This document shows, in pieces, positions 2,386 through 64,000 of a stretch of 64,000 bases of DNA. Source of the stretch: Bacteroidota bacterium. Its GTDB lineage: Bacteria > Bacteroidota > JABWAT01. Made by a program: the position numbers and the translations under genes. The notes under the pieces are model-generated. The model was given only the letters and a program-made list of their open reading frames with translations. It was not told the DNA's origin and did not search any database. Within the stretch, counting starts at the first letter, position 1; every line of letters begins with the position of its first letter. The DNA lies in assembly GCA_023151185.1 (NCBI GenBank), contig JAKLJL010000010.1, positions 64,001-128,000 of the forward strand, written 5' to 3'.

Positions 2386-2474
2386 TTTTCACTTGCCTAA
2401 AGCAAAGGGCAAGGTTTTTGATGAAAAACCCAGAACTGATTTTAAAAAAAGAAATTGGCATCAATAATTGTTCA

Positions 2475-2651
2475 ATGAAACCCATAAATCTTTCCTTCTT
2501 ATTATCCGTTTTACTGTTGGTTTCAAAGCAAACTTATGCACAGCACTCAGATACATGGTTTGTTAAAGACCGCCACATCAATACAAAAGTGTTAAAAGAA
2601 GGCTCTCATCGCTATCTCGTGAACTTTAAGATTGGTAAAAATGCACCCTGA
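2475..2651 (+). CDS. Possible small secreted protein (58 aa)
   Basis: The internal Met yields a classical signal peptide MKPINLSFLLSVLLLVSKQTYAQ. The ORF is small with no recognisable domain, so this call is weak. Confidence 0.25.
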   Translation: MKPINLSFLLSVLLLVSKQTYAQHSDTWFVKDRHINTKVLKEGSHRYLVNFKIGKNAP

Positions 2652-3334
2652 AGCTGGATTCAGGTCCGGATAAGAACCAGTGAACGTACCATGCAAAATA
2701 AAAAACCGGTTATCCTAATAACACAGCAGCGGGGAGACAAAGAATCACCCATTCTTACAGTAAAATCGGTATAGGATGATTATACAATGATACCAGTTGC
2801 TCATGAGTTTGGGAATAAACAGCGGTTTTGCGCTGCCCAGATAAATAGTGAAAGTAAAACTGTACTGTATAACGGCAGCCTGGTATCAGATGCTGATACT
2901 TTAAAACACAGGAAAGCCTTATGGTTAGTTATTTGAAAGCATAGGGAAAAATTATTTTTTAACCGGCATCTTGATATGGAAGTTTTTTAAACACTCACCT
3001 ATAAAAATGGAGTACCATTTTTTGGACCCTTCTACGACCCCGGAAGGTCATCGTCTTTTGCAAAAGCAGCTTAAACAGTTGCTGGCGCAGCACAACTAAA
3101 CGGGCAGGATAATCAGGCAATTGATTGCAGGTTATCAGAAGTGTGGCACAAATCGAGTATTTGATACTGAAACTGGTGAAAAGATGGGGAATCCAATTGA
3201 GACACTTCAACAGATGAAGAAAGAGTTAAGTTTGGGGTGCCCTGGAAAAGAAGGCCTGGTCATTCCTTTTAAAATGGAAAAATTCCAGCTCTTAATCATT
3301 TCATAACTTTGAAAATTTAAAACCCGGCAACACG

Positions 3335-4417
3335 ATGAGTCGAATTTATTTAACTTTTCTTTTTATATTGAATCTCACCAGCTTATGGGCTCAGAAGACG
3401 GCTCCATTTGCCGACTCACTCCGGATTGTATACCATATTCCAGAAATTAGTTATGCCGTAGTTGATTCCAAATCAATATTGGAAATTGCGGCATTGGGCA
3501 AACACTCTGTTGCTCTTCCGGATACTGCAACCCTAAACGATAGATTTCACATTGGTTCTAATACCAAAGCAATGACGGCATTTATAATTGCCAGATATGT
3601 GGAAAATGGAAAGTTGAAATGGAATACAAAATATTTTGATTTATTTCCTGAATGGAAGGAAAAAAGCAAGCCTGAATATGCCAGCATTACTCTTCAGGAT
3701 TTGCTTTCACATCAAGCAGGAATACAACCATTTCAAGGAGACGGCGACCCTCAAATACCTGACTACAAAGGAACAAACCAGGAAAAGAGAAAACAATTCG
3801 GACAATTCGTATTAACACAAGAGTCTGTTACTCTCGATGAAAAAACTCCGTTTGTTTATTCAAATGCGGGATATACCCTGGCAACATTAATGTTAGAAAA
3901 GGTTACAGGGAAGAGTTGGGAACAGCTAGTCCAAAAAGTATTCAATGAAGATTTAAAGCTGAATGTAGAATTCTCGTGGCCGGAAAATCAAAAACAGAAG
4001 GATACCTGGGGGCATAGTTTTGTAAATGGCAAACTCATCCCAGTTCCATCAACAGTTGATTTTCATTTGGATTATACAGAACCTGCAGGAGATTTAAATA
4101 TCAAGTTAAATGACTACATCAGATTTATTCAATTGAATTTAGAAGGGCTAAACGGGCAAAATAATTATTTGACGGCCAAAACCTATTCATTTATTCATCG
4201 AGGAATAGAGAACTATTCTTTGGGTTGGTATAATATTTATGAAAACGGCAAGGAGCTTTCAACACATTCAGGTACAGTTGGAACCTATTATACACTTGTT
4301 CAAATCGATAGAATTAAAGGGATTGCCTATGTAATATTTACAAATTCCTTTAATCAAGATACCCAACAAGGTGTAAGGCTTTTGATGAGAAAAATGAAAG
4401 AAAATTACGGCAGCTAA
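3335..4417 (+). CDS. Serine hydrolase of the beta-lactamase family (class C beta-lactamase / esterase-like), secreted
   Basis: A signal peptide is followed by the S-x-x-K motif (IGSNTKAM), Y-x-N (YSNAGY) and an HSG triad variant. It is 360 aa. Confidence 0.75.
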   Translation: MSRIYLTFLFILNLTSLWAQKTAPFADSLRIVYHIPEISYAVVDSKSILEIAALGKHSVALPDTATLNDRFHIGSNTKAMTAFIIARYVENGKLKWNTKYFDLFPEWKEKSKPEYASITLQDLLSHQAGIQPFQGDGDPQIPDYKGTNQEKRKQFGQFVLTQESVTLDEKTPFVYSNAGYTLATLMLEKVTGKSWEQLVQKVFNEDLKLNVEFSWPENQKQKDTWGHSFVNGKLIPVPSTVDFHLDYTEPAGDLNIKLNDYIRFIQLNLEGLNGQNNYLTAKTYSFIHRGIENYSLGWYNIYENGKELSTHSGTVGTYYTLVQIDRIKGIAYVIFTNSFNQDTQQGVRLLMRKMKENYGS

Positions 4418-5012
4418 AATCGGTTTAGTTTCACTGTTTTCAGTCGGCAATTGGGGGGAATGGGACTTATTCTTCTTTGCCGGCATATTTTTATTATTTT
4501 CCGGTTTTCGCCATTTTATTCCTTTTAAGCTACTTTAGATGACGCTTCCGGAGATGCCTAAAAAAACCTGATTTCATTTTTAAACCCTTCCAAATATCCG
4601 CCATCTATGCTCTGATCAGTAATGACATTTGGTGGTGCCTTTCTTTTCATGGTAAATACTGAGAAGTAAAAAGGAAAGGCGGTAAAGTATTTTAGCACTT
4701 TCGGACGGGTTCCCTTCTTTTATTACAATTCGCACCTAAACCTGATGCATTTAGTCGCCATGATTTTTGCAGAATTCGCAGGGTTGTGCTGAAGAATTAT
4801 AATTTTACAAGATCGGGTATCTGAACCACCATCATTAAAAGGATATGGTTTTCAACTTCGGGAGGTTTGTTCTATTTGGATTTTTGTGATAGTTTTAGTA
4901 TATCCGGTGTGCAGAAAACTTGAAAGTTATATACAAAATCACAAAAACAAATGGTAGTTGATTTACCATCACGAGAAAGAGAACAGTCAGAACAGGTACC
5001 CTAAAAAAACAG

Positions 5013-7965: not shown

Positions 7966-8592
7966 ATGAAAAAATACTACCTTCTTGTTTTTCTTTTCTT
8001 TGCCGGGCTGATCGGATCCGGTATTCAGCCGCATGACTATTTTACCTGGTTTCTGGAAGTTTTTCCGGCCATACTCGGAGCTCTGGTTCTGGCAGTCACT
8101 TTCAAAAAGTTCAGGTTTACCGATCTGACTTACAGTCTGATTCTGGTTCATTGCTTTATCCTGTTTATCGGCGGGCATTATACCTATGCTGAAGTTCCGC
8201 TTTTTGACTGGATCAGGGAGGTTTTGAACCAGACCCGGAACAATTATGATAAAGTCGGGCATTTTGCACAGGGATTTGTTCCTGCCCTGATTGTGCGGGA
8301 ATTATTCCTGCGGCTGGAAATTGTTCAGAAAAAAGGATGGATTTCCTTTCTGACGGTTACGGTTTGCATGAGCATCAGTGTCGTGTATGAATTTCTGGAA
8401 TGGTTCGTTGCCCTGAGCACCGGTGAATCGGCGGATGCTTTCCTGGGTACACAGGGATATATCTGGGACACTCAGTCGGATATGTTTCTGGCAACTCTTG
8501 GCGCTCTGACGATGGTTCTTCTGTTTTCAAAGGTTCAGGACCGGATGATCCGGAACCTGGATCCAAATGGGGATTCTGCTTCCCGACCCTGA
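7966..8592 (+). CDS. DUF2238 (YjdF-like) inner-membrane protein
   Basis: It has multiple transmembrane segments, and the conserved core KVGHFAQGFVPALIVRE...EFLEW is reminiscent of the YjdF family. This is a family guess from memory. Confidence 0.5.
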   Translation: MKKYYLLVFLFFAGLIGSGIQPHDYFTWFLEVFPAILGALVLAVTFKKFRFTDLTYSLILVHCFILFIGGHYTYAEVPLFDWIREVLNQTRNNYDKVGHFAQGFVPALIVRELFLRLEIVQKKGWISFLTVTVCMSISVVYEFLEWFVALSTGESADAFLGTQGYIWDTQSDMFLATLGALTMVLLFSKVQDRMIRNLDPNGDSASRP

Positions 8593-8804
8593 AACTGAAG
8601 GCAGGGGTTTTTTGATCCGGAAACAGTCCCTGCCTCTCTCCTGCACAGTACTTCCTCCCGGCTTGTCACCGCTTCCGGTTGCCGGCAGTCAAATTTCCTG
8701 CCGGACGTAAACCTCTGACACGATCAACCTGATCCTGCATCCAACCGCTGTTCTTAGCCCGAAACGGGTCTAAGCTGAAAAATTACTTACCAAACCAAAC
8801 TATA

Positions 8805-11369
8805 GTGAAAAAACAGACGATGGAAAAAATTCTTATAATTGGCGGCGTAGCAGCCGGTGCAACGGCCGCAGCCAAGGCCCGCAGGGTTTCCTCAACGGCC
8901 CAGATTACCATGCTCGAAGGCGGTCCGGATGTTTCATTTGCCAACTGCGGATTGCCGTATTACATTGGCGGGGATATCAAAAACAGGTCAAGTCTGATCC
9001 TGCAAAGTCCCGAAAGTTTTAAAGAACAGTACAATGTCGACGTCCACATCCATACAACCGTGACGTCCATTGACCGGAAGAATAAACGGGTTCAGGCCAC
9101 CCATGGTCTAACCGGAGAGAAAAAGGAATTCAGTTACACCAAACTGATTCTTGCTCAGGGCGGGAGACCGATCAAACCGACCCTTCCGGGTTCTGATCTG
9201 AGTCATGTTTTTACTCTGTGGACTCTGGACGATATGGATAAGATCCATGAGTTTATCTCCACGAAAAAACCGAAAAGTGCAGTTGTTGTTGGCGGTGGTT
9301 TTATCGGACTTGAAATGGCGGAGGCTCTGGCGAAACGTCAGCTTTCTGTGCATGTGGTAGAAGCGATGCCCCATGTCATGAGCATTATGGAGGCCGAGAT
9401 TGCCGGACTGATCCAGGCGGAAATGGAAAGCTATGGGGTCCGGCTTCACACCGGCACCAGTGTCAGGGAAATTACACCGGGCGAGGTGAAATTAGATAAC
9501 GGAGAGTCGATCAGTGCCGGAATGGTTCTGCTGTCAATCGGCGTCCGCCCGACCCTTCAGTTGGCAAAAGACTCTGACCTAACACTTGGGGATGCCGGTG
9601 GCCTGCTGGTTAACGAGTATCTGCAGACCAGTGACCCCGATATTTACGCCGCCGGTGATATGGTTGAAATCGTCCACAGGGTCAATCAAAAAAAGGTCCG
9701 GATTCCGCTTGCCGGTCCTGCGAACCGCCAGGGCCGGATTGCTGCTGAAAATGCCCTGGGCGGATCCCATCCGTACAAAGGGTCGATCGGTACCTCGGTT
9801 GTCCGGGTTTTTGAAATGGTAGCCGGGACCACCGGGTTGTCTTTAAAACAGGCGAAAAGTGCCGGAATTGATGCGGATGCTGTCACCGTTCATAAGGAAC
9901 ATCACACTTCTTACTATCCGGATTCTGAACAGGTGACAGTTCTGCTGGTTTTTGACAGAAAGACCGGTGTCATTCTGGGTGGTCAGACCGCCGGATATAA
10001 AGCTGCCGACAAGCGGCTCGATGTTATTGCAACTGCAGTTGCCTCACGTTTAACCATTCATGATCTGGCGGATATCGATTTTGCCTATTCGCCACCGATC
10101 GGGACAGCAAATGATGTTCTGAATATGGCTGCCTACTCAGCAGAGAACAAACTTTCCGGGTTCAGTGCCTCGGTTCCGGTTTCTGAACTGGATGAATTTG
10201 TCAAAACCCATTCACCGGTAATTCTGGATGTCAGAGATGTGTTTGCGTTTGAAAAAAGTCATATCGCCGGGGCAATTCACATCCCGTACGAAGTACTTTC
10301 CGAAGAGATGGACTCTGTTCCCGCTGACCGGCCGGTTCTGGTCTATGATGAGACCGGTAAAAAGGGACATCAGACTCTGAGAAAACTGACCGGCGCCGGG
10401 TATCCGAGGGTTTGGACTGTTTCCGGCGGACATACCTCCCTTCAGCGGTTTGCCCGTGCGATCCCGTTCACTCATTTTTCCCTCGGGCTTCTTCCGGTTG
10501 AGAAAAAGTCACTCCACGCTCAGGAAGTAAAGACTGAGAAGAAAGAAGAACCGGTTAAAACTCAGGAAGGTCCTCTGGTTGTCGATGTCAGAACACCCGG
10601 TGAGTTCAGCCGTGGCGCCTATCCGGGTGCTGTGAATATTCCGGTTGATGAACTTCCGGCCAGGCTGGCTGAGCTGGGTCAGGATCCGGCCAGAGACATC
10701 ACGGTTTACTGTGCTTCGGGTGCCAGATCAGCTTTTGCAGAAGGACTTTTAAAACAGGTCGGGTTTACCAATGTGACCAACGGCGGCGGGCTGAATGCCA
10801 TGATGGCCCGTCAGAAGAAAAGTGACTCTCCGGCCGGACCGGCAAAGCCCTTCATCGTGGATGTCAGAAGTGAAGGTGAGTTCAGCCGTGGTGCCTATCC
10901 CGGTGCAGTGAACATTCCGGTTGATGAACTTCCTGCCCGGCTGGCAGAATTCGGTTCGGATCCGGCCAGAGACATCACGGTTTACTGTGCTTCGGGTGCC
11001 AGATCAGCCTATGCAGAAGGACTTCTGAAGCAGGCCGGCTACACCAATGTGACCAATGGAGGCGGACTGAATGCCATGATGGCCCGTCAGAAAAAGAGTG
11101 ATGCACCTGCAGCAGAACCGGCGGGTCAGCTTATTGTGGACGTCCGGTCGCCGTATGAATTCATGGGAGGCGCCTATCCCGGTGCGGTCAATATCCCGCT
11201 GGATGAACTTCAGTTCAATCTGGATAAACTTGGCAGCAAGTCACGGGAAATTGTCGTTTATTGTGCATCGGGTGCCCGTTCTGCCTATGCCCAGCAGATG
11301 CTTCGTCAGCTTGGGTTCCAGAATGTGAAAAATGGCGGCGGACTGATGCAGATGATGCGCAGCCGGTAA
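8805..11369 (+). CDS. CoA-disulfide reductase-type pyridine nucleotide-disulfide oxidoreductase fused to four rhodanese domains (three catalytic CASGARS copies)
   Basis: The N-terminus has the FAD/NAD(P) Rossmann fold (ILIIGGVAAGATAA) and the redox cysteine context (SFANCGLPYYIGG). The C-terminus has one non-catalytic rhodanese followed by three rhodanese domains that each carry VYCASGARS. Two of these domains are near-identical at the DNA level. Confidence 0.85.
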   Translation: MKKQTMEKILIIGGVAAGATAAAKARRVSSTAQITMLEGGPDVSFANCGLPYYIGGDIKNRSSLILQSPESFKEQYNVDVHIHTTVTSIDRKNKRVQATHGLTGEKKEFSYTKLILAQGGRPIKPTLPGSDLSHVFTLWTLDDMDKIHEFISTKKPKSAVVVGGGFIGLEMAEALAKRQLSVHVVEAMPHVMSIMEAEIAGLIQAEMESYGVRLHTGTSVREITPGEVKLDNGESISAGMVLLSIGVRPTLQLAKDSDLTLGDAGGLLVNEYLQTSDPDIYAAGDMVEIVHRVNQKKVRIPLAGPANRQGRIAAENALGGSHPYKGSIGTSVVRVFEMVAGTTGLSLKQAKSAGIDADAVTVHKEHHTSYYPDSEQVTVLLVFDRKTGVILGGQTAGYKAADKRLDVIATAVASRLTIHDLADIDFAYSPPIGTANDVLNMAAYSAENKLSGFSASVPVSELDEFVKTHSPVILDVRDVFAFEKSHIAGAIHIPYEVLSEEMDSVPADRPVLVYDETGKKGHQTLRKLTGAGYPRVWTVSGGHTSLQRFARAIPFTHFSLGLLPVEKKSLHAQEVKTEKKEEPVKTQEGPLVVDVRTPGEFSRGAYPGAVNIPVDELPARLAELGQDPARDITVYCASGARSAFAEGLLKQVGFTNVTNGGGLNAMMARQKKSDSPAGPAKPFIVDVRSEGEFSRGAYPGAVNIPVDELPARLAEFGSDPARDITVYCASGARSAYAEGLLKQAGYTNVTNGGGLNAMMARQKKSDAPAAEPAGQLIVDVRSPYEFMGGAYPGAVNIPLDELQFNLDKLGSKSREIVVYCASGARSAYAQQMLRQLGFQNVKNGGGLMQMMRSR

Positions 11370-13882: not shown

Positions 13883-14692
13883 ATGAATTCAGAATCCGTT
13901 TTGTTAGCCTTTCTGTTAACTTCGTTTGCCGGTCTGGCAACGGTAATCGGCAGCGTTATGGCGTTTTTTTCCAGAAAATTCAATCCACTTTTTCTAAGCG
14001 GATCGCTGGGATTTTCAGCCGGAGTCATGATTTACATTTCCTTTGTTGAATTGTTCCCGCAGGCCCGGCAAACTCTGACCCTGATCCATGGTGTTTCAGC
14101 CGGCGGATGGCTTACTGTTGCTGCCTTTTTTTCCGGAATTGCCCTCATTGCCCTGATTGACAAACTGGTTCCGTCTGCCGAAAATCCGCACGAAATGGCC
14201 AATCTGGACAGTGCCCGGTTTAGTGAAAAAGAGTCGTCTGCCCGGTTAAAACGGGTGGGTGTTTTTACTGCACTGGCCATCGGCATTCACAACTTTCCCG
14301 AGGGAATTGCAACCTTTGCCGGATCTCTTAACGATCCTGCCCTGGGAGTCAGTATTGCGGTTGCCATTGCCATACATAACATTCCGGAAGGAATCGCCGT
14401 ATCAGTTCCGGTTTATTTTGCCACAAAAAGCAGGCGAAAGGCATTCTGGCTTTCCCTTCTTTCCGGACTGGCCGAACCGGTCGGAGCTTTGGTTGCCTTC
14501 CTGATCTTTGGATCTTTACTTGATCAGACTGCATTCGGATTTGTTTTTGCAGCAGTTGCAGGAATTATGGTGTACATTTCACTGGATGAACTATTGCCGG
14601 CAGCAGAGGAATATGGTCAGCATCATATCGCAATCGGTGGTTTAATAGCCGGAATGCTGGTTATGTCAGTGAGTTTACTTCTGTTGGGGTGA
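13883..14692 (+). CDS. zupT: ZIP family zinc transporter ZupT
   Basis: It has the duplicated HNFPEGIA and HNIPEGIA metal-binding motifs and 8 transmembrane segments across 269 aa. Confidence 0.85.
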   Translation: MNSESVLLAFLLTSFAGLATVIGSVMAFFSRKFNPLFLSGSLGFSAGVMIYISFVELFPQARQTLTLIHGVSAGGWLTVAAFFSGIALIALIDKLVPSAENPHEMANLDSARFSEKESSARLKRVGVFTALAIGIHNFPEGIATFAGSLNDPALGVSIAVAIAIHNIPEGIAVSVPVYFATKSRRKAFWLSLLSGLAEPVGALVAFLIFGSLLDQTAFGFVFAAVAGIMVYISLDELLPAAEEYGQHHIAIGGLIAGMLVMSVSLLLLG

Positions 14693-14714
14693 GTTATCTT
14701 TTAAGGAGAATTCA

Positions 14715-15005
14715 ATGAGTTCCTGGTTTATAGCCAAAATCAAGATTCAGGATCCGGAAGAATACCAGAAGTATCTGGACCACGCCGGGTCTGTTTTTAA
14801 AAAGTTCAGAGGTGAGTATCTTGTGCTTGATAATTCACCGGTGGTACTTGAAGGAGCCTGGGATGCAACCCGGATCGTCATCATCCGGTTTGAGAGTGAA
14901 CAGGACTTTAAAGACTGGTATTACTCAAGCGACTATCAGGAAATTTTACTTCACCGGCTGGCGGCAGCAGACTGTGAAACCATTCTGGCAAAGGGAATTT
15001 ACTGA
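14715..15005 (+). CDS. DUF1330 domain protein
   Basis: The ~96-aa ORF is compact and well conserved-looking (IAKIKIQDPEEYQKYL...). The family assignment is from memory. Confidence 0.5.
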   Translation: MSSWFIAKIKIQDPEEYQKYLDHAGSVFKKFRGEYLVLDNSPVVLEGAWDATRIVIIRFESEQDFKDWYYSSDYQEILLHRLAAADCETILAKGIY

Positions 15006-56619: not shown

Positions 56620-56961
56620 ATGGCTTACAACCTCTTGCTTGCAGACCGGATCCGCCTGACTCTTTCTTCACGGAAGGATCTGGAAGAAAAGGCCATGTTT
56701 GGCGGCCTTGCCTTTATGGTCGATGGCAAAATGTGTGTCGGGATTCTTCAGGAAGACCTGATGATCCGGATCGATCCTGCCCGCCGGGGAGACGTCCTTG
56801 CCCGCCCAGGATGCCGGGATATGGAATTCACCGGTCGGCCGATGGCCGGCTATTTCCTCATTTCACCCGAAGGAACCGGAACTGAACCCGATCTGACCCG
56901 CTGGATTGACCTGGCCCTGGAATTTAATCCGAAAGCAAAAAAATCGGGTAAACGAAAATGA
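56620..56961 (+). CDS. TfoX/Sxy N-terminal domain protein
   Basis: The MFGGLAFMVDGKMCVGI core of the TfoX_N domain is present. It is 113 aa. Confidence 0.65.
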   Translation: MAYNLLLADRIRLTLSSRKDLEEKAMFGGLAFMVDGKMCVGILQEDLMIRIDPARRGDVLARPGCRDMEFTGRPMAGYFLISPEGTGTEPDLTRWIDLALEFNPKAKKSGKRK

Positions 56962-57524
56962 ATCCGCTGCAGTCTGTTTTCGGATCGTACGGGATTTTGC
57001 CGGGTGATGCTCTTCGTGCGGCAGAAGCCTTCCGGCAGATTTCTTTGAAAAAAGGGGAGTTTTTCCTGCAGGAAGGTCACGTTCAGGATAAAGCCGGTTT
57101 CCTGGTTTCGGGCTGGGCTCATTTTTTTTCTCTGACGGAACAGGGCGATTCGGTAACGACTTATTTTGCCGGACCCGGCCGGTTCATTGCGTCATTGAGC
57201 AGTTTTCTCTTTCGTGCACCTGCCCGGGAAAGTATCCGGATGGCAACCGATGCAGTCCTTCTTGAAATTTCCGGCGATGCCTTCCGCCGGCTGAGAACGG
57301 AAATTCCCGGTTTTGACCGTCTTTACGTATCCCTTTTGGAGTATCAGATTTCCTGTATTGAAACCAGCCGGTTCGATATGATTTCTCTGTCTCCCGCAGA
57401 AAGGTACCGCAAACTCCTGCGGGAGGATCCTAAGCTGACCGGGCTGATGTCCGTCCAGGATCTGGCCTCTCTGCTTGGCATCACCCCGCGTCACCTCAGC
57501 CGCCTGAGAAAACCCGGCCGTTAA
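56958..57524 (+). CDS. Crp/Fnr family transcriptional regulator
   Basis: It has an N-terminal cNMP-binding beta-roll and the C-terminal HTH (SVQDLASLLGITPRHLSRLRK). Its ATG overlaps the TfoX_N stop (ATGA). Confidence 0.8.
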   Translation: MNPLQSVFGSYGILPGDALRAAEAFRQISLKKGEFFLQEGHVQDKAGFLVSGWAHFFSLTEQGDSVTTYFAGPGRFIASLSSFLFRAPARESIRMATDAVLLEISGDAFRRLRTEIPGFDRLYVSLLEYQISCIETSRFDMISLSPAERYRKLLREDPKLTGLMSVQDLASLLGITPRHLSRLRKPGR

Positions 57525-57633
57525 CCGGCATTACCCGTTCCCTTTATCGGATCACCCGTCCTGATTTTTCCGGACAAATGTCCTCTGACCAGCCTCAGAA
57601 AATCCGGACCTTTGGTTTAAAAACGGAGGGTTT

Positions 57634-58341
57634 ATGTCATCTCAATTTCCATCCCTGAAAAGTGCAGGGTGGTCTTTCCTGACCGGATCAGTTCTGGTTC
57701 TGATTCCCTACAGTCTGCTGGTTGCCCGGTTTAAGTATCCTGAGGTTCTCAGAAAACCTGCCGGAGAAATTCTGGCGTCCTTTCACGCCGGCGGGCCGGA
57801 TCTGATTCTGCTCTGGCTGGCCTTTGCCCTGTGCGGAATTCCGTTGCTGTACGGATATTACCGGATTGGCACAGTCCTGAAATCAGAGTTTCCCTTTGCC
57901 GGATTTGCCACGGTGGCCGGACTTGCCGGCGGGTTCGCCCAGATTATCGGACTGCTCAGGTGGGTTTTTGTGGTCCCGGTTCTGGCTGAAACCTGGAATT
58001 CAGGCTCTGAGCCGGTCAGAATTGCAGCCGAAACGGGATTTTTACTTCAGCATCAGGCTGGTGGTGTTCTGCTGGGTGAGTTTATCGGGCAGACCGCAAC
58101 CATTTTCTGGCTGATTTCCTTTTCCGTGATTCTGTTTCAGGCCAGGGTGATTCCAGTCTGGGTGATGGTTTGGGGGCTTTTGTCGGGTGTGATTTATTTT
58201 CTTGCGCAGGCTGAACTTTTGTCGACGGTGATTCCGGAATTCCCGGTCTGGGGACCGGCAGGGTTGATTGGCAGCACTCTTTGGCTCCTCTGGATGGTTC
58301 TGCTCGGGTTCAGGCTGATCCGGAAACAGCAACCGGGGTAA
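57634..58341 (+). CDS. Integral membrane protein (DUF4386-like)
   Basis: It has 6 transmembrane segments and is paralog-like to 15093..15758. Confidence 0.45.
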   Translation: MSSQFPSLKSAGWSFLTGSVLVLIPYSLLVARFKYPEVLRKPAGEILASFHAGGPDLILLWLAFALCGIPLLYGYYRIGTVLKSEFPFAGFATVAGLAGGFAQIIGLLRWVFVVPVLAETWNSGSEPVRIAAETGFLLQHQAGGVLLGEFIGQTATIFWLISFSVILFQARVIPVWVMVWGLLSGVIYFLAQAELLSTVIPEFPVWGPAGLIGSTLWLLWMVLLGFRLIRKQQPG

Positions 58342-58984: not shown

Positions 58985-59102
58985 CCGTTCCGGCCATTCC
59001 GGGGAAAGACACCCAGGACCCGGAGGCCCAAAGGAATTGCAAACAGGAAAGGTTTACTTTCCTTCCTTTTAACGGGAAGGTCAGGGTGGGGGATAATTTC
59101 TC

Positions 59103-59130
59103 GCCCGGTACCCCAACCCGGGCTTTTTTT
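59103..59130 (+). terminator. Rho-independent terminator after 58412..58984
   Basis: The hairpin GCCCGG-TACCCCAA-CCGGGC is followed by TTTTTTT. Confidence 0.55.
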
Positions 59131-59475
59131 CCCCCGGCGCTACCGGATTCCTGACCGATCAATAAAATCGATTGCAAGTCTGCGCATCATCAGCCAAATT
59201 CATTAGCATAAGTTGAGTAACTCATAAGCATGACTTGATCAACTCATAAGCATGACTTTTGAAAAGCATGAGCATGAGTTTATCCGGTCGCTAAAAGGGG
59301 GTGTTTCCCTTAAAAGAGTATCCGGTTGAATGGGTTTAGAAGAGGTCGGGTGAGCAGTCAGCGGCTGGGAAACTGTACCGGGCTGTGACGGAGTCAAAAA
59401 CCCGGGGAATGCTTTCCCTCCCCCGGTTCGGGAGAGGGAAGGGCAGGCTTAATCAGGTAACAGGCAGTAAAGTCC

Positions 59476-62143: not shown

Positions 62144-62653
62144 GTGAAAATCCAGATGTATGAGATAAATCCCGCAAAAATACCGGTAACTCCCGCCGTC
62201 AGAAGTCTCAGATCCGGACATATTCCGTTCCGGCCGTATCTTTTCCCGTGGAAGGAAAAAGGCGGCACCCGGTATTCTGCAGAACTTTTACAGATCAGTG
62301 AACATTTGGTGATCAAAACCCTGGTTTTTGAACCCGACCGGGGAGATCCTTTTCTGGTGCTGATGCATGGCGACCGGGAAGTATCAGTAAAAGCTCTGGC
62401 AAGGCTGCTCGGCGTGAAAACCGTTACCCCTGCATCCGAACCAACCGCAACCCGGTTTACCGGGTATCAGTTTGGCGGGACCTCACCGTTCGGGACTCGG
62501 CGGAAGATGAAGATCTATGCTGAAAAGTCCCTTTTTGATCTGACTGAACTTTACATCAACGGGGGTAAACGGGGATTCTTGGTGGCGGTCAATCCGGCAG
62601 ATCTGGGAAAAGTTCTGGAACTGGAAACCGTGACTGTGGCAATCACTGACTAA
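62144..62653 (+). CDS. ybaK: YbaK/ProX-type aminoacyl-tRNA deacylase domain protein
   Basis: It has the TPAVRSLRS N-terminus and the KTLVFE...GGTSPFG blocks of the YbaK/ProRS-associated domain. Confidence 0.7.
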   Translation: MKIQMYEINPAKIPVTPAVRSLRSGHIPFRPYLFPWKEKGGTRYSAELLQISEHLVIKTLVFEPDRGDPFLVLMHGDREVSVKALARLLGVKTVTPASEPTATRFTGYQFGGTSPFGTRRKMKIYAEKSLFDLTELYINGGKRGFLVAVNPADLGKVLELETVTVAITD

Positions 62654-62679: not shown

Positions 62680-64000
62680 GATAGGTCCGGCGTTTTGATG
62701 GAAAGCTGAAGAAGAAATACCGATTTGAATTTGGCAGTTGCATTTTTCGCACGGAAGAACGGCATTGGTATTACCGGAAATTTGTGGCCGTGCGGATTTT
62801 GTGATTTTATTCTTTCCCCCGGGGCTGACGCCCCGGGCTACCCCAAGGCTTCGCCACGGGCAAGCAGGATGTCACCCCTCCGGGGCTGAGGGCACTGCGT
62901 CGACCCCAAGACTTCGTCGCGGGCATGCGGCTGACGGCGGAATACAAAATTCTAACCTATAGAGCCTCAGTGTCCTTTTCCCCTCCTTTTCTAAAGGAGG
63001 GGTTAGGGGTGGTTTGGCTGTTTTCTCAGAACCAAAAGAAAACTGCCCAGTCAGGCACCCAAAGTTAGCAGTTTTAATTGGCAGAATCGCGCCGTGCAGC
63101 GTGGGAGACGTTTCGTGCGTTTCAGATCCTGACCGAAAAACCACTGAACCCGTGAGTATGGAACAGGTTATCCGGTCAGGATGTGGGGGCAGGCGGGAAA
63201 AGTCAAGGAAACGGCGGGTTCGATTCTGCTGAGGATTTTTGGGTACTTTTTATCCGTAAAAAGTACCTCCCCGAAGGGAAAGAGAGTATGAGGTTGCCGG
63301 TCCGGCGTTTCGCCGGAAGGATGGGGACTTTTTCAAAAAAGTCCCGCAAAAACGTTACCGCCCAGCCGCTCTAAGACTTGTGACTGGCGCTCCGGTCCTG
63401 AAAAAATCAGAACAAGAACGATGAGCTGAAGTTTTAATTCCCTCTCACAGACACTGATTTTTTATAACCGGACACTTCGCTGGTCACTGCGTCGACCCCA
63501 AGACTTTGTCGCGGGCATGCGGCTGACGGCGGAATACAAAATTCTAACCTATAGAGCTCTGGTTTCCGGAAATGGCTCTGTGCCACCCGGTAGCTTTATT
63601 GCCGAACCCAAAGAAAATCACTTCATCCGTCGTCCAAAGTTTGGAGCCGAATTGAGCAGAATCGCGCCGTGCAGCGTGGGAGACGTTTCGTGCGTTTCAG
63701 ATCTTGGCCGAAAAACCACAGAACCCGTGAGACTGGAACAAGCCATCCGGTCAGGATGTGGGGGCAGGCGGGCAAGGGCAAGGAAACGGCGGGTTCGATT
63801 CTGCAGAGGATTTTTGGGTACTTTTTATCCGTAAAAAGTACCTCCCCGAAGGGAAAGGGAGTTTGAGATTGCCGGTCCGGCGTTTCGCCGGAAGGATGGG
63901 GAAGGAATACCGATTTGAATTAGTCGGTTGCGTTTCCGCACGGAAGAACGGCATTGGCATAACCGGAAATTTGTAGCCGTGCGGATTTTGTGATTTTATT
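62680..64000. repeat. Array of long non-coding structured repeats (modules X ~100 bp, Y ~75 bp, Z ~250 bp; periods ~590 and ~1190 bp), running off the window edge
   Basis: Direct sequence comparison shows each module twice: X at 62711-62810 and 63899-64000, Y at 62893-62966 and 63486-63558, and Z at 63072-63325 and 63654-63902. Copies are 85-95% identical. The region contains perfect hairpins (GGGTACTTTTTATCCGTAAAAAGTACC; GGGACTTTTTCAAAAAAGTCCC). Only short R-rich ORFs that share repeat-derived sequence are present. Confidence 0.7.

What the first reader, a model, noticed from the sequence alone, without database searches (positions are those of the whole stretch)
62680..64000. Unclassified array of long structured non-coding repeats at the 3' end of the window
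About 1.3 kb of non-coding DNA follows ybaK and is built from three repeat modules, X, Y and Z. X is about 100 bp and begins GAAGAAATACCGATTTGAAT...TTGTGATTTTATT. It contains an internal inverted repeat (CGCACGG...CCGTGCG) and is preceded in both copies by the tail of Z. Y is about 75 bp and begins CACTGCGTCGACCCCAAGACTTCGTCGCGGGCATGCGGCTGACGGCGGAATACAAAATTCTAACC. Z is about 250 bp and begins GCAGAATCGCGCCGTGCAGCGTGGGAGACG...GGTTCGATTCTGC...GCCGGTCCGGCGTTTCGCCGGAAGGATGGGGA. The layout is X-Y-Z-Y-Z-X and continues past position 64000. Copies differ by scattered substitutions and indels rather than by targeted changes. Each Z carries a perfect 11-bp-stem hairpin (GGGTACTTTTT-ATCCG-TAAAAAGTACC), and a second palindrome (GGGACTTTTTCAAAAAAGTCCC) lies between units. 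The GC-rich, hairpin-dense and ORF-poor character points to tandem copies of a structured RNA or to nested fragments of a non-autonomous element. Its repeats are too long and its spacers too regular for CRISPR, and it has no attC-like ends or flanking integrase within the window. Because the array runs off the window edge, an associated protein gene (RT, transposase or nuclease) may lie just beyond it.
Basis: seen in the sequence. Interest (0 to 1): 0.72.

Follow-up and report, generated by a model that had tools for sequence, protein, structure and literature searches.

The report
Cluster of modular intergenic repeat elements
The 1.3 kb after ybaK is one cluster of a previously undescribed, multi-copy family of hairpin-rich DNA repeats that also sits between unrelated genes in related bacteria; it resembles the mosaic repeat elements long known in E. 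coli and pneumococcus more than a new RNA machine, although its largest 200-nt module could still be a structured RNA.

Summary
X, Y and Z each occur twice at 87-97% identity, and the stretch matches no protein family. They are not peculiar to this locus. In an NCBI MAG (GCA_041916715.1, locus L012), six Z copies at 87-97% identity lie in three separate intergenic regions within 19 kb, beside unrelated genes. In a JGI metagenome contig (L011), X and Y modules occur without Z, and Y is on the opposite strand.

At least ten modules join in different orders at fixed junctions. Z has a sharply bounded 203-nt conserved block. Its 149-nt core is closed by a 13-bp stem, and its differences cluster in one hairpin tip. 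Rfam has no match for Z. One small hairpin module scores below threshold against Acido-Lenti-1 in all three organisms.

No transposase, reverse transcriptase, integrase or Cas gene lies near any array. Covariation evidence is too thin to prove an RNA.

Best reading: a new family of interspersed mosaic repeats of the BIME/BOX kind. A multicopy structured RNA remains possible for Z. Interest is moderate to low (0.35).

The parts
62144..62653 (+). ybaK-like gene (aminoacyl-tRNA editing domain). It is the upstream neighbour and not part of the repeat family. The array starts 30 nt after its stop codon.
   Evidence: Pfam PF04073, 95 bits; ORF list
62684..62811 (+). Degenerate Z-tail fragment (62684-62711) followed by X copy 1 (62712-62811). 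X is a stem CCGCACGG...CCGTGCGG followed by a T-rich run ATTTTGTGATTTTATT.
   Evidence: Repeat families D3 and D4; 87% over 128 nt to 63874-64000; X relatives in L012 at 90% and L011 at 77-81%
62812..62889 (+). GC-rich 8-bp hairpin (62818-62837, loop TGAC) followed by CTAC, then a 23-nt hairpin mini-module (62842-62864) and the rest of the Y-like half copy Y'. On the minus strand it reads GTAG plus a palindrome, like a REP element.
   Evidence: Sequence; sub-threshold Acido-Lenti-1 hit of 28.2 bits against a gathering score of 37, recurring in L012 and L011; 79% to L011 1955-2106
62890..62965 (+). Y copy 1; contains the 23-nt mini-module at 62905-62927
   Evidence: Family D2, 97% to copy 2; core 95% identical to L011 1778-1821 on the opposite strand
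62966..63080 (+). Linker L1, with hairpin CCCCTCCTTT/AAAGGAGGGG. It is one of three alternative sequences found upstream of Z.
   Evidence: 98-99% identical to the L1 copies in L012 arrays r2 and r3; alignment
63081..63229 (+). Z core copy 1, 149 nt. A closing stem GCAGAATCGCGCC / GGCG(GGTT)CGATTCTGC encloses a long hairpin with a variable tip and a G-rich 3' segment.
   Evidence: Fold z of -3.65 for the wider segment and -4.1 for the core; alignment of 8 copies; consensus fold
63230..63287 (+). Z 3' hairpin module: an 11-bp perfect hairpin at 63242-63267, then CCCCGAAGGG. It is present after every Z core.
   Evidence: a stand-alone relative with a changed but still paired stem in L011 1481-1532, minus strand
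63288..63327 (+). Z tail, an optional module with hairpin CCGGCG-TTT-CGCCGG. It is present after 4 of 8 Z copies; the others are followed by heptamer runs.
   Evidence: Alignment A1, columns 229-277; module map
63328..63481 (+). Module U, 154 nt. The 22-nt palindrome 63324-63345 straddles the tail/U junction. U is single-copy in the window but 99% identical to a segment in L012 array r1.
63482..63557 (+). Y copy 2 (23-nt mini-module at 63497-63519)
63558..63655 (+). Linker L2, an alternative pre-Z sequence. It contains a stretch of about 21 nt identical to the tip of one L012 Z copy.
   Evidence: 97% to the L012 L2 copies; 21-nt identity with the Z_e tip
63656..63804 (+). Z core copy 2
   Evidence: 93% to copy 1; the surrounding 262-nt segment is 97% identical to L012 9075-9336
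63805..63902 (+). Z 3' hairpin module (63805-63862) and tail (63863-63902), copy 2
63903..64000 (+). X copy 2, which runs to the end of the window

Best explanation
The region is one cluster of a lineage-restricted, multi-copy family of interspersed mosaic repeats. These are modular, hairpin-rich, non-coding DNA of the same general kind as E. coli BIMEs and pneumococcal BOX elements.

Shown:
- At least ten modules are joined at fixed break-points in different orders. They are X, a REP-like hairpin, a 23-nt mini-hairpin, Y, linkers L1 and L2, the Z core, the Z 3' hairpin, the tail and U. Relatives add heptamer runs and hairpins A and B.
- The same modules occupy four or more unrelated intergenic sites in three organisms.
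- Small modules occur alone and in either orientation.
- No mobility gene is adjacent to any array.

Inferred:
- Clusters grow, shrink and reshuffle by unequal recombination or gene conversion between modules. This would explain why copies in the L012 genome resemble each other (97-99%) slightly more than they resemble the window's copies (95-97%), and why tip variants are shared across genomes.
- New sites are seeded in trans by an enzyme that acts on hairpin DNA, encoded elsewhere in the genome. A REP-associated Y1 transposase is the obvious candidate, given the GTAG-plus-palindrome module.
- Any effect on the host probably comes from the hairpins within read-through transcripts, for example 3'-end stabilisation or termination. 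Three of four arrays begin 0-30 nt after the stop codon of a co-oriented gene, and X and hairpin B are followed by T-runs.
For: - Dispersal: six Z copies at 87-97% identity lie in three separate L012 intergenic regions, and the window and L012 share no other DNA or gene synteny.
- A 792-nt composite (Z, tail, U, Y, L2, Z) is 90% identical between the window and L012 array r1 despite different flanking genes.
- L011 has X, the REP-like hairpin and Y', an inverted Y, and a stand-alone Z 3' hairpin, but no Z core.
- Mosaic junctions: three alternative sequences precede Z and two follow it, all switching at the same columns.
- All modules, including U, L1 and L2, are 97-99% identical between genomes, so conservation is not specific to Z.
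- Fold stability is similar on both strands, as expected for inverted-repeat DNA.
- There are no Rfam matches at gathering score.
- The repeats break short-read assembly: the Logan unitig ends inside X.
- The nearest known motif, Acido-Lenti-1, is itself multicopy and tandem.
Against: - No terminal inverted repeats plus target-site duplications, and no empty-versus-filled site pair, were found, so mobility is inferred and not shown.
- No RAYT or transposase was seen. Only about 97 kb of sequence across three organisms could be inspected, and whole genomes were not available.
- The 64-kb window holds only this one cluster, so copy density in this genome may be modest.
- The Z block has very sharp edges, an invariant closing stem and 5' 48 nt, and a hot spot of change confined to one hairpin tip. 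This pattern is also what a functional RNA with a free tip would show.
- Six of eight one-sided stem changes give G.U on the + strand.
Confidence: 0.55

Rival explanations
1. Z, alone or as Z plus tail plus X, is a multicopy gene for a trans-acting structured small RNA of about 150-350 nt. Each unit would be transcribed on the + strand and terminated at X or at hairpin B plus its T-run. The other modules would be promoters, terminators and spacers duplicated along with it.
For: - The core folds into a closed multi-stem structure with z of -2 to -4 in all 8 copies.
- The conserved block has sharp edges.
- Variation is confined to a hairpin tip, while the closing stem and 5' 48 nt are invariant.
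- Six of eight one-sided stem substitutions are G.U-compatible on the + strand only, and five further invariant G.U pairs are predicted there.
- All eight Z copies share one orientation relative to the other modules, and every array is co-oriented with an adjacent gene.
- Terminator-like X (stem plus ATTTTGTGATTTTATT) or hairpin B plus TTTT follows each Z.
Against: - There is no recognisable promoter upstream of Z, and the upstream sequence differs among copies.
- The minus strand folds about as significantly as the plus strand.
- Only one compensatory change was seen, in a 2-bp helix, and two stems are broken.
- Six of eight is not significant (one-sided P about 0.14).
- Flanking modules with no predicted role are as conserved as Z.
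- An invariant 20-mer of Z is absent from 185,579 species-representative genomes, so the family is very narrow for a functional RNA.
- There is no Rfam match.
Confidence: 0.27
2. Z is the scaffold of a guide-type or bridge-type RNA (omega-RNA, bridge-RNA or retron-like) that serves a nuclease, recombinase or RT encoded beyond the window. The variable hairpin tip would be the specificity segment.
For: - The RNA is closed by a long terminal stem and has one hyper-variable internal segment.
- One tip variant is identical over 21 nt to a segment of linker L2 in the same array.
- The 5' end of Z has a 25-nt exact match to a phage terminase-like ORF.
- The array runs off the window, so a downstream partner gene cannot be excluded.
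Against: - None of the three complete L012 arrays or the L011 cluster has an adjacent TnpB, IscB, IS110, RT or integrase gene. The only nuclease-like neighbour is a 257-aa HNH_2 protein about 500 bp from one array.
- None of the 50 window ORFs scanned is a mobility gene.
- The phage match lies in the invariant, base-paired closing stem and not in the variable tip, and nothing else in Z matches that phage.
- Four further module cores have no viral match.
- The tip variants are few, and some are shared between genomes.
Confidence: 0.08
3. The apparent array is an assembly artefact, with collapsed or chimeric repeats.
For: The repeats do break assemblies. The Logan unitig for this locus stops inside X.
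Against: - An independent assembly of another organism carries the same composite (Z, tail, U, Y, L2, Z) at 90% over 792 nt, inside a 188-kb contig.
- The copies in the window differ from one another by 3-17%, so they are not collapsed duplicates.
- The Logan unitig confirms the junction between ybaK and X.
Confidence: 0.03

Closest known systems
Bacterial interspersed mosaic elements (BIMEs, built from REP/PU units) of E. coli and other proteobacteria
   Same: Both are intergenic clusters built from several short hairpin-forming modules combined in different orders. They are multi-copy, lie next to unrelated genes and often sit just after stop codons. One module here (62818-62841, minus strand) has the REP layout of GTAG followed by a GC-rich palindrome.
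   Different: There is no sequence relationship. The largest module here, the 203-nt Z block, is far longer than any BIME motif, and repeat units are 470-590 nt. Alternating REP orientation is not seen. No RAYT gene was found, although whole genomes could not be searched. The host is an FCB-group bacterium.
BOX elements of Streptococcus pneumoniae (boxA, boxB repeated, boxC)
   Same: Both have a modular architecture with variable module number, predicted stable secondary structure, dispersed intergenic copies and no coding capacity of their own.
   Different: The sequences and host are unrelated. BOX modules are 45-59 nt in a fixed A-B-C order, whereas here there are at least ten modules with several alternative junctions and a much longer core.
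Acido-Lenti-1 RNA motif (Rfam RF01687; Weinberg et al. 2010, PMC2864571)
   Same: The hairpin plus GGCUA linker plus second small hairpin next to X matches the model's whole two-hairpin architecture. It scores 28.2 bits in the window, 20.7 in L012 and 31.7 in L011. The published motif is also multicopy, occurs in tandem about 200 nt apart in Lentisphaera, and has no known function.
   Different: All three scores are below the gathering score of 37. The linker in the window is much shorter (7 nt where the model has 20). The motif covers only about 45 nt of the 1.3-kb array and says nothing about Z, X or Y. It has been reported only from Acidobacteria and Lentisphaerae.
MITEs and palindrome-associated non-autonomous elements (for example Correia, RUP, and IS200/IS605-derived PATEs)
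   Same: They are short, non-coding, structured, multi-copy and intergenic. The Z core is bounded by a 13-bp inverted repeat.
   Different: No target-site duplication was found. Conservation runs 58 nt past the right arm but stops exactly at the left arm, so the inverted repeat is not the element's terminus. No cognate transposase was found.

Membership tests
REP / BIME | Imperfect GC-rich palindrome of 20-40 nt preceded by a conserved GT[AG]G tetranucleotide | tested here: met
   On the minus strand, 62841-62818 reads GTAG-CCCGGGGC-GTCA-GCCCCGGG. The same layout occurs in L011 at 2033 and 2357 (ATAG in one copy) and in L012 at 8977. This holds for one small module only.
REP / BIME | Tens to hundreds of copies per genome | not testable with these tools
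   No whole genome was available. The window's 64 kb holds one copy of this hairpin.
REP / BIME | A RAYT (Y1 transposase) gene in the genome | not testable with these tools
   None was found among 50 window ORFs or among the neighbours in L011 and L012, but the rest of each genome is unseen.
Interspersed mosaic repeats (generic class) | The same modules occur at several unrelated intergenic loci, combined in different orders | tested here: met
   Module maps of the window, three L012 arrays and L011; no gene synteny between them.
MITE | Terminal inverted repeats at the ends of the conserved unit | tested here: not met
   The 13-bp inverted repeat closes the 149-nt core, but the conserved block extends 58 nt further on the 3' side in all 8 copies.
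MITE | Target-site duplication flanking each insertion | tested here: inconclusive
   Reading the array boundaries showed no direct repeat. No empty site was available for comparison.
CRISPR array | Short repeats of 21-48 nt separated by unique spacers of similar length, usually with cas genes | tested here: not met
   The repeat units are 76-300 nt and the sequences between them are themselves repeated elsewhere. There are no cas genes among the 50 ORFs scanned.
Acido-Lenti-1 (RF01687) | Score at or above Rfam's gathering score of 37 bits | tested here: not met
   28.2, 20.7 and 31.7 bits.
Any Rfam 15 family (for Z) | Match at the family's gathering score | tested here: not met
   There were 0 matches in the window and in L011 at gathering score. 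For Z, only noise appeared at E<=10 in the window and at E<=1 in L012.
Retron / omega-RNA / bridge RNA | Adjacent gene for RT, TnpB/IscB or an IS110-type recombinase | tested here: not met
   Absent next to the three complete L012 arrays and the L011 cluster. Downstream of the window's array the sequence is unknown.
Structured ncRNA (generic) | Significant covariation supporting the helices | tested here: inconclusive
   Across 8 copies at 95-99% identity outside the tip, the 64 predicted pairs include 1 compensatory pair, 6 G.U changes and 2 breaks.

The most novel reading that the evidence does not exclude
The 149-203-nt Z block is a new class of multicopy structured RNA. Its invariant scaffold carries a hyper-variable hairpin tip that sets specificity, either for a partner enzyme encoded elsewhere or for trans targets. 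The surrounding mosaic modules would be its expression and termination signals.
Probability: 0.12. Interest if true: 0.7.

Novelty: new member of a known kind. Interest (0 to 1): 0.35.

Why it matters
Interspersed mosaic repeats are well studied in proteobacteria and firmicutes but hardly described in FCB-group bacteria. This family shows an unusually long, sharply bounded and structured module (Z), arranged in units of about 0.5 kb together with REP-like hairpins and heptamer runs. It has practical effects, because it breaks short-read assemblies and produces spurious ORF calls (P0001 is one). It also links the orphan Rfam motif Acido-Lenti-1 to a REP-like repeat context. If Z proved to be a functional RNA, it would be a new multicopy RNA class with a variable tip. 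On present evidence the finding is a modest addition to the catalogue of bacterial repeat families.

Tried and rejected
- **Extending the contig failed.** Exact look-ups of the T9SS protein and YbaK return only a 3.4-kb Logan unitig that ends inside X. QueF shows the organism is present only in Logan assemblies.
- **Annotated collections.** blastn of the whole array against plasmids and phages found nothing.
- **Viral scans.** Seven were run. One gave a 25-nt match in a phage terminase-like ORF with no wider similarity at DNA or protein level, which I judged chance or unexplained. One short 17-mer gave six hits with no similarity to Z beyond 17-19 nt. The other five found nothing.
- **Other ORF searches.** The X/Y' ORF query found nothing. 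The exhaustive HMMER search with P0001 returned only generic heptamer-run translations from unrelated organisms.
- **Readings rejected:** tRNA or tmRNA; a decayed phage gene; a small coding gene behind the AAGGAGG in L1, because an indel in an L012 copy shifts the frame (read from the sequence); a sigma-70 promoter in front of Z.
- **Taxonomy.** A literature search for the MAG accession found nothing, so the organisms are described only as FCB-group bacteria, on the basis of their T9SS sorting domains.

Full report
**1. Observation**

The sequence after the ybaK-like gene (62144-62653, PF04073) is repeat-built as described. The repeat finder gives these pairs:
- Y at 62890-62965 and 63482-63557, 97% identical.
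- Z at 63029-63327 and 63604-63902, 88% ungapped.
- Z-tail plus X at 62684-62811 and 63874-64000, 81-94%.

Module cores match only these places in the 64-kb window and never match in shuffled sequence. The 11-bp hairpin (63242-63267 and 63817-63842) and the 22-nt palindrome (63324-63345) are present. Eight ORFs inside the region have no Pfam hit. It is the longest gene-free stretch in the window, at least 1347 nt against 949 nt for the next longest.

Four refinements follow:
- A GC-rich hairpin plus a Y-like half copy sits between X1 and Y1 (62812-62889).
- A 154-nt segment U separates Z1 from Y2.
- With gaps allowed, Y, its linker and Z form one unit of about 430 nt at 83% identity.
- Z-tail plus X recurs with a period of 1190 nt, so the super-unit may repeat beyond the window.

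**2. Known families**

Rfam 15 gives nothing at gathering score in the window. At E<=10 the only non-trivial hit is Acido-Lenti-1, at 28.2 bits against a threshold of 37, on the hairpin at 62818-62850. ARAGORN finds no tRNA or tmRNA. There is no similarity to plasmids or phages.

**3. Relatives**

The source contig could not be extended. The only public contig with the neighbouring proteins is a 3.4-kb Logan unitig that stops inside X, and the organism otherwise appears only in Logan assemblies. A 20-mer that later proved invariant in all Z copies is absent from 185,579 species-representative genomes, apart from two chance hits in coding DNA.

A degenerate motif shared by Y and Y' found one JGI metagenome contig, L011. 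A spurious 105-aa ORF across Y, the linker and Z found one protein, P0001. Its contig is L012, from NCBI MAG GCA_041916715.1.

**4. What the relatives show**

L012 carries six Z copies at 87-97% identity to the window's copies. They lie in three separate intergenic regions within 19 kb (about 3868-4634 on the minus strand, 8573-9801 and 14672-14992), next to unrelated genes: GH3 with small ORFs, asparaginase with peptidase M16, and a cellulase. One L012 segment reproduces the window's composite (Z, tail, U, Y, L2, Z) at 90% over 792 nt in a different gene context. Apart from the repeats, the window shares no DNA similarity or gene synteny with L012 or L011.

L011 has the following and no Z core:
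- Two X copies, each followed by the same type of hairpin, and one also followed by Y'.
- A Y core that is 95% identical but on the opposite strand.
- A stand-alone relative of the Z 3' hairpin, with a changed but still paired stem.

The modules are therefore independent, dispersed units.

**5. Mosaic anatomy**

Mapping named modules onto all five regions gives:
- Window: tail fragment, X, REP-like hairpin, Y', Y, L1, Z, tail, U, Y, L2, Z, tail, X.
- L012 r1: hairpin B, Z, tail, U, Y, L2, Z, heptamers, hairpin A, hairpin B.
- L012 r2: heptamers, A, B, L1, Z, tail, X, REP-like hairpin, Y' fragment, L2 fragment, Z, heptamers, A, B, L1, Z, heptamers, A, B.
- L012 r3: heptamers, A, B, L1, Z, heptamers, A, B.

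The alignment of eight Z copies shows conservation starting exactly at GCAGAATCG and ending near GAAGGGAAA, a block of 203 nt. Three alternative sequences occur upstream and two downstream, all switching at the same columns. Modules with no evident role (U 99%, L1 98-99%, L2 97%) are as similar between genomes as the Z core (91-95%).

**6. Is Z an RNA?**

The core (149 nt in seven copies, 150 nt in one) folds into a closed structure. It has a 13-bp terminal stem with a 4-nt bulge, a long hairpin and a G-rich 3' segment. Z-scores are -2 to -4 in all copies but similar on both strands.

The consensus fold has 64 pairs. Most are invariant. Six show one-sided changes to G.U on the + strand, two are broken, and one compensatory change lies in a 2-bp helix. 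This leans towards a + strand RNA but is not significant.

Variation is strongly clustered. Twelve of 28 variable columns lie in the 17-column tip of the long hairpin (corrected P about 2e-4), while the rest of the block is 95-99% identical. Copies within L012 (97-99%) are slightly more alike than L012 copies are to the window's copies (95-97%). Yet tip variants are shared across genomes: the W_Z2 tip equals the L12_b tip. One tip is identical over 21 nt to part of linker L2. Concerted evolution or gene conversion within a larger family explains this as well as RNA-level constraint does.

No sigma-70-type promoter precedes Z. X (stem plus ATTTTGTGATTTTATT) and hairpin B plus TTTT look terminator-like on the + strand.

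**7. Surroundings**

Fifty window ORFs encode ordinary chromosomal functions, including methylmalonyl-CoA mutase, thymidylate kinase, QueF, a sigma factor, T9SS-sorted enzymes and transporters. None is a transposase, integrase, RT or Cas gene. The same holds for the neighbours in L012 and L011. The only nuclease-like gene is a 257-aa HNH_2 protein about 500 bp from one array. T9SS sorting domains place the organisms in the FCB group.

Three of four arrays begin 0-30 nt after the stop codon of a co-oriented gene. The fourth lies upstream of a co-oriented gene.

**8. The small hairpin module**

On the minus strand, 62841-62818 reads GTAG followed by a GC-rich palindrome. From my own knowledge (Nunvar et al. 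2010), this is the canonical REP layout. The same module in L012 and L011 gives Acido-Lenti-1 scores of 20.7 and 31.7 bits, and the L011 copy matches the model's whole two-hairpin architecture. The original description lists 89 representatives, tandem copies about 200 nt apart on one Lentisphaera contig, and no known function (PMC2864571 supplement). The module is best described as Acido-Lenti-1-like but below threshold.

**9. Conclusion**

The finding is a real cluster of a new, narrowly distributed family of interspersed mosaic repeats. I favour a BIME/BOX-like non-autonomous repeat system that spreads in trans and reshuffles by recombination (confidence 0.55). The main rival is that Z is a multicopy structured small RNA (0.27). 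A guide-type or bridge-type RNA (0.08) and an assembly artefact (0.03) are unlikely. Novelty: a new member of a known kind. Interest: 0.35.

Noticed in passing
window 63080-63104 and 63656-63679; L010 2251-2275: The 5' end of the Z core (GGCAGAATCGCGCCGTGCAGCGTGG) matches 25 nt exactly, in copy 1, inside a 524-aa terminase-like ORF of IMG/VR contig IMGVR_UViG_3300037722_000699. There is no further DNA or protein similarity. My rough estimate of the chance expectation is 1e-3 or less. The match lies in the invariant, base-paired stem and not in the variable tip.
   Followed up: partly
window 62842-62864, 62905-62927, 63497-63519; L012 about 8999 and about 4205 (minus strand); L011 2059-2081: A 23-nt hairpin mini-module, CCCAAGRCTTYGYCRCGGGCAWG, is present in Y and Y' of the window and L011. 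It is precisely absent from both homologous L012 modules, each time at an ...AC^C.GG junction. Y and Y' differ by a compensatory GAC/GTC to GGC/GCC change. This suggests exact gain or loss of a tiny unit.
   Followed up: partly
L012 3778-3857, 8343-8459, 9347-9412, 9812-9863, 14382-14581, 15004-15049: Runs of an AGNCAGR heptamer (5-20 copies) flank Z in the related MAG but are absent from the window. Gene callers translate them into low-complexity ORFs such as P0001. Similar runs occur in many unrelated organisms.
   Followed up: partly
L012 4622-4473 (minus strand) versus linker L2 (window 63571-63591): The variable tip of one Z copy is identical over 21 nt to a segment of linker L2. L2 therefore seems to hold a relic of a Z hairpin, or else sequence has been exchanged between them.
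   Followed up: no
L011 about 170-200 and 8266-8300: An unrelated hairpin repeat, TGTCAYCCCGGRCTTGAYCCGGGRTCCATCCCAC, occurs twice in the metagenome contig. It is a second dispersed repeat family in that organism.
   Followed up: no
window 10599-11101: A 276-nt tandem duplication (1.8 copies, 88%) lies inside the 854-aa pyridine-nucleotide-disulphide oxidoreductase ORF with four rhodanese domains. It is a coding domain repeat and not part of the finding.
   Followed up: no
window 2386-3334, 4418-5012 and 58985-59475: These are the other long gene-free gaps (949, 595 and 491 nt). The last holds a 22-nt tandem repeat at 59200-59258. None contains modules of this family or an Rfam match, and they were not examined further.
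   Followed up: no
window 56958-58341; L012 16042-17493: A cNMP-binding regulator gene lies next to a DUF4386 gene in both the window and L012, at only about 44% identity over a short stretch and in a different relative orientation. The pairs are probably paralogous. No true orthologues were available to measure how closely related the organisms are.
   Followed up: no
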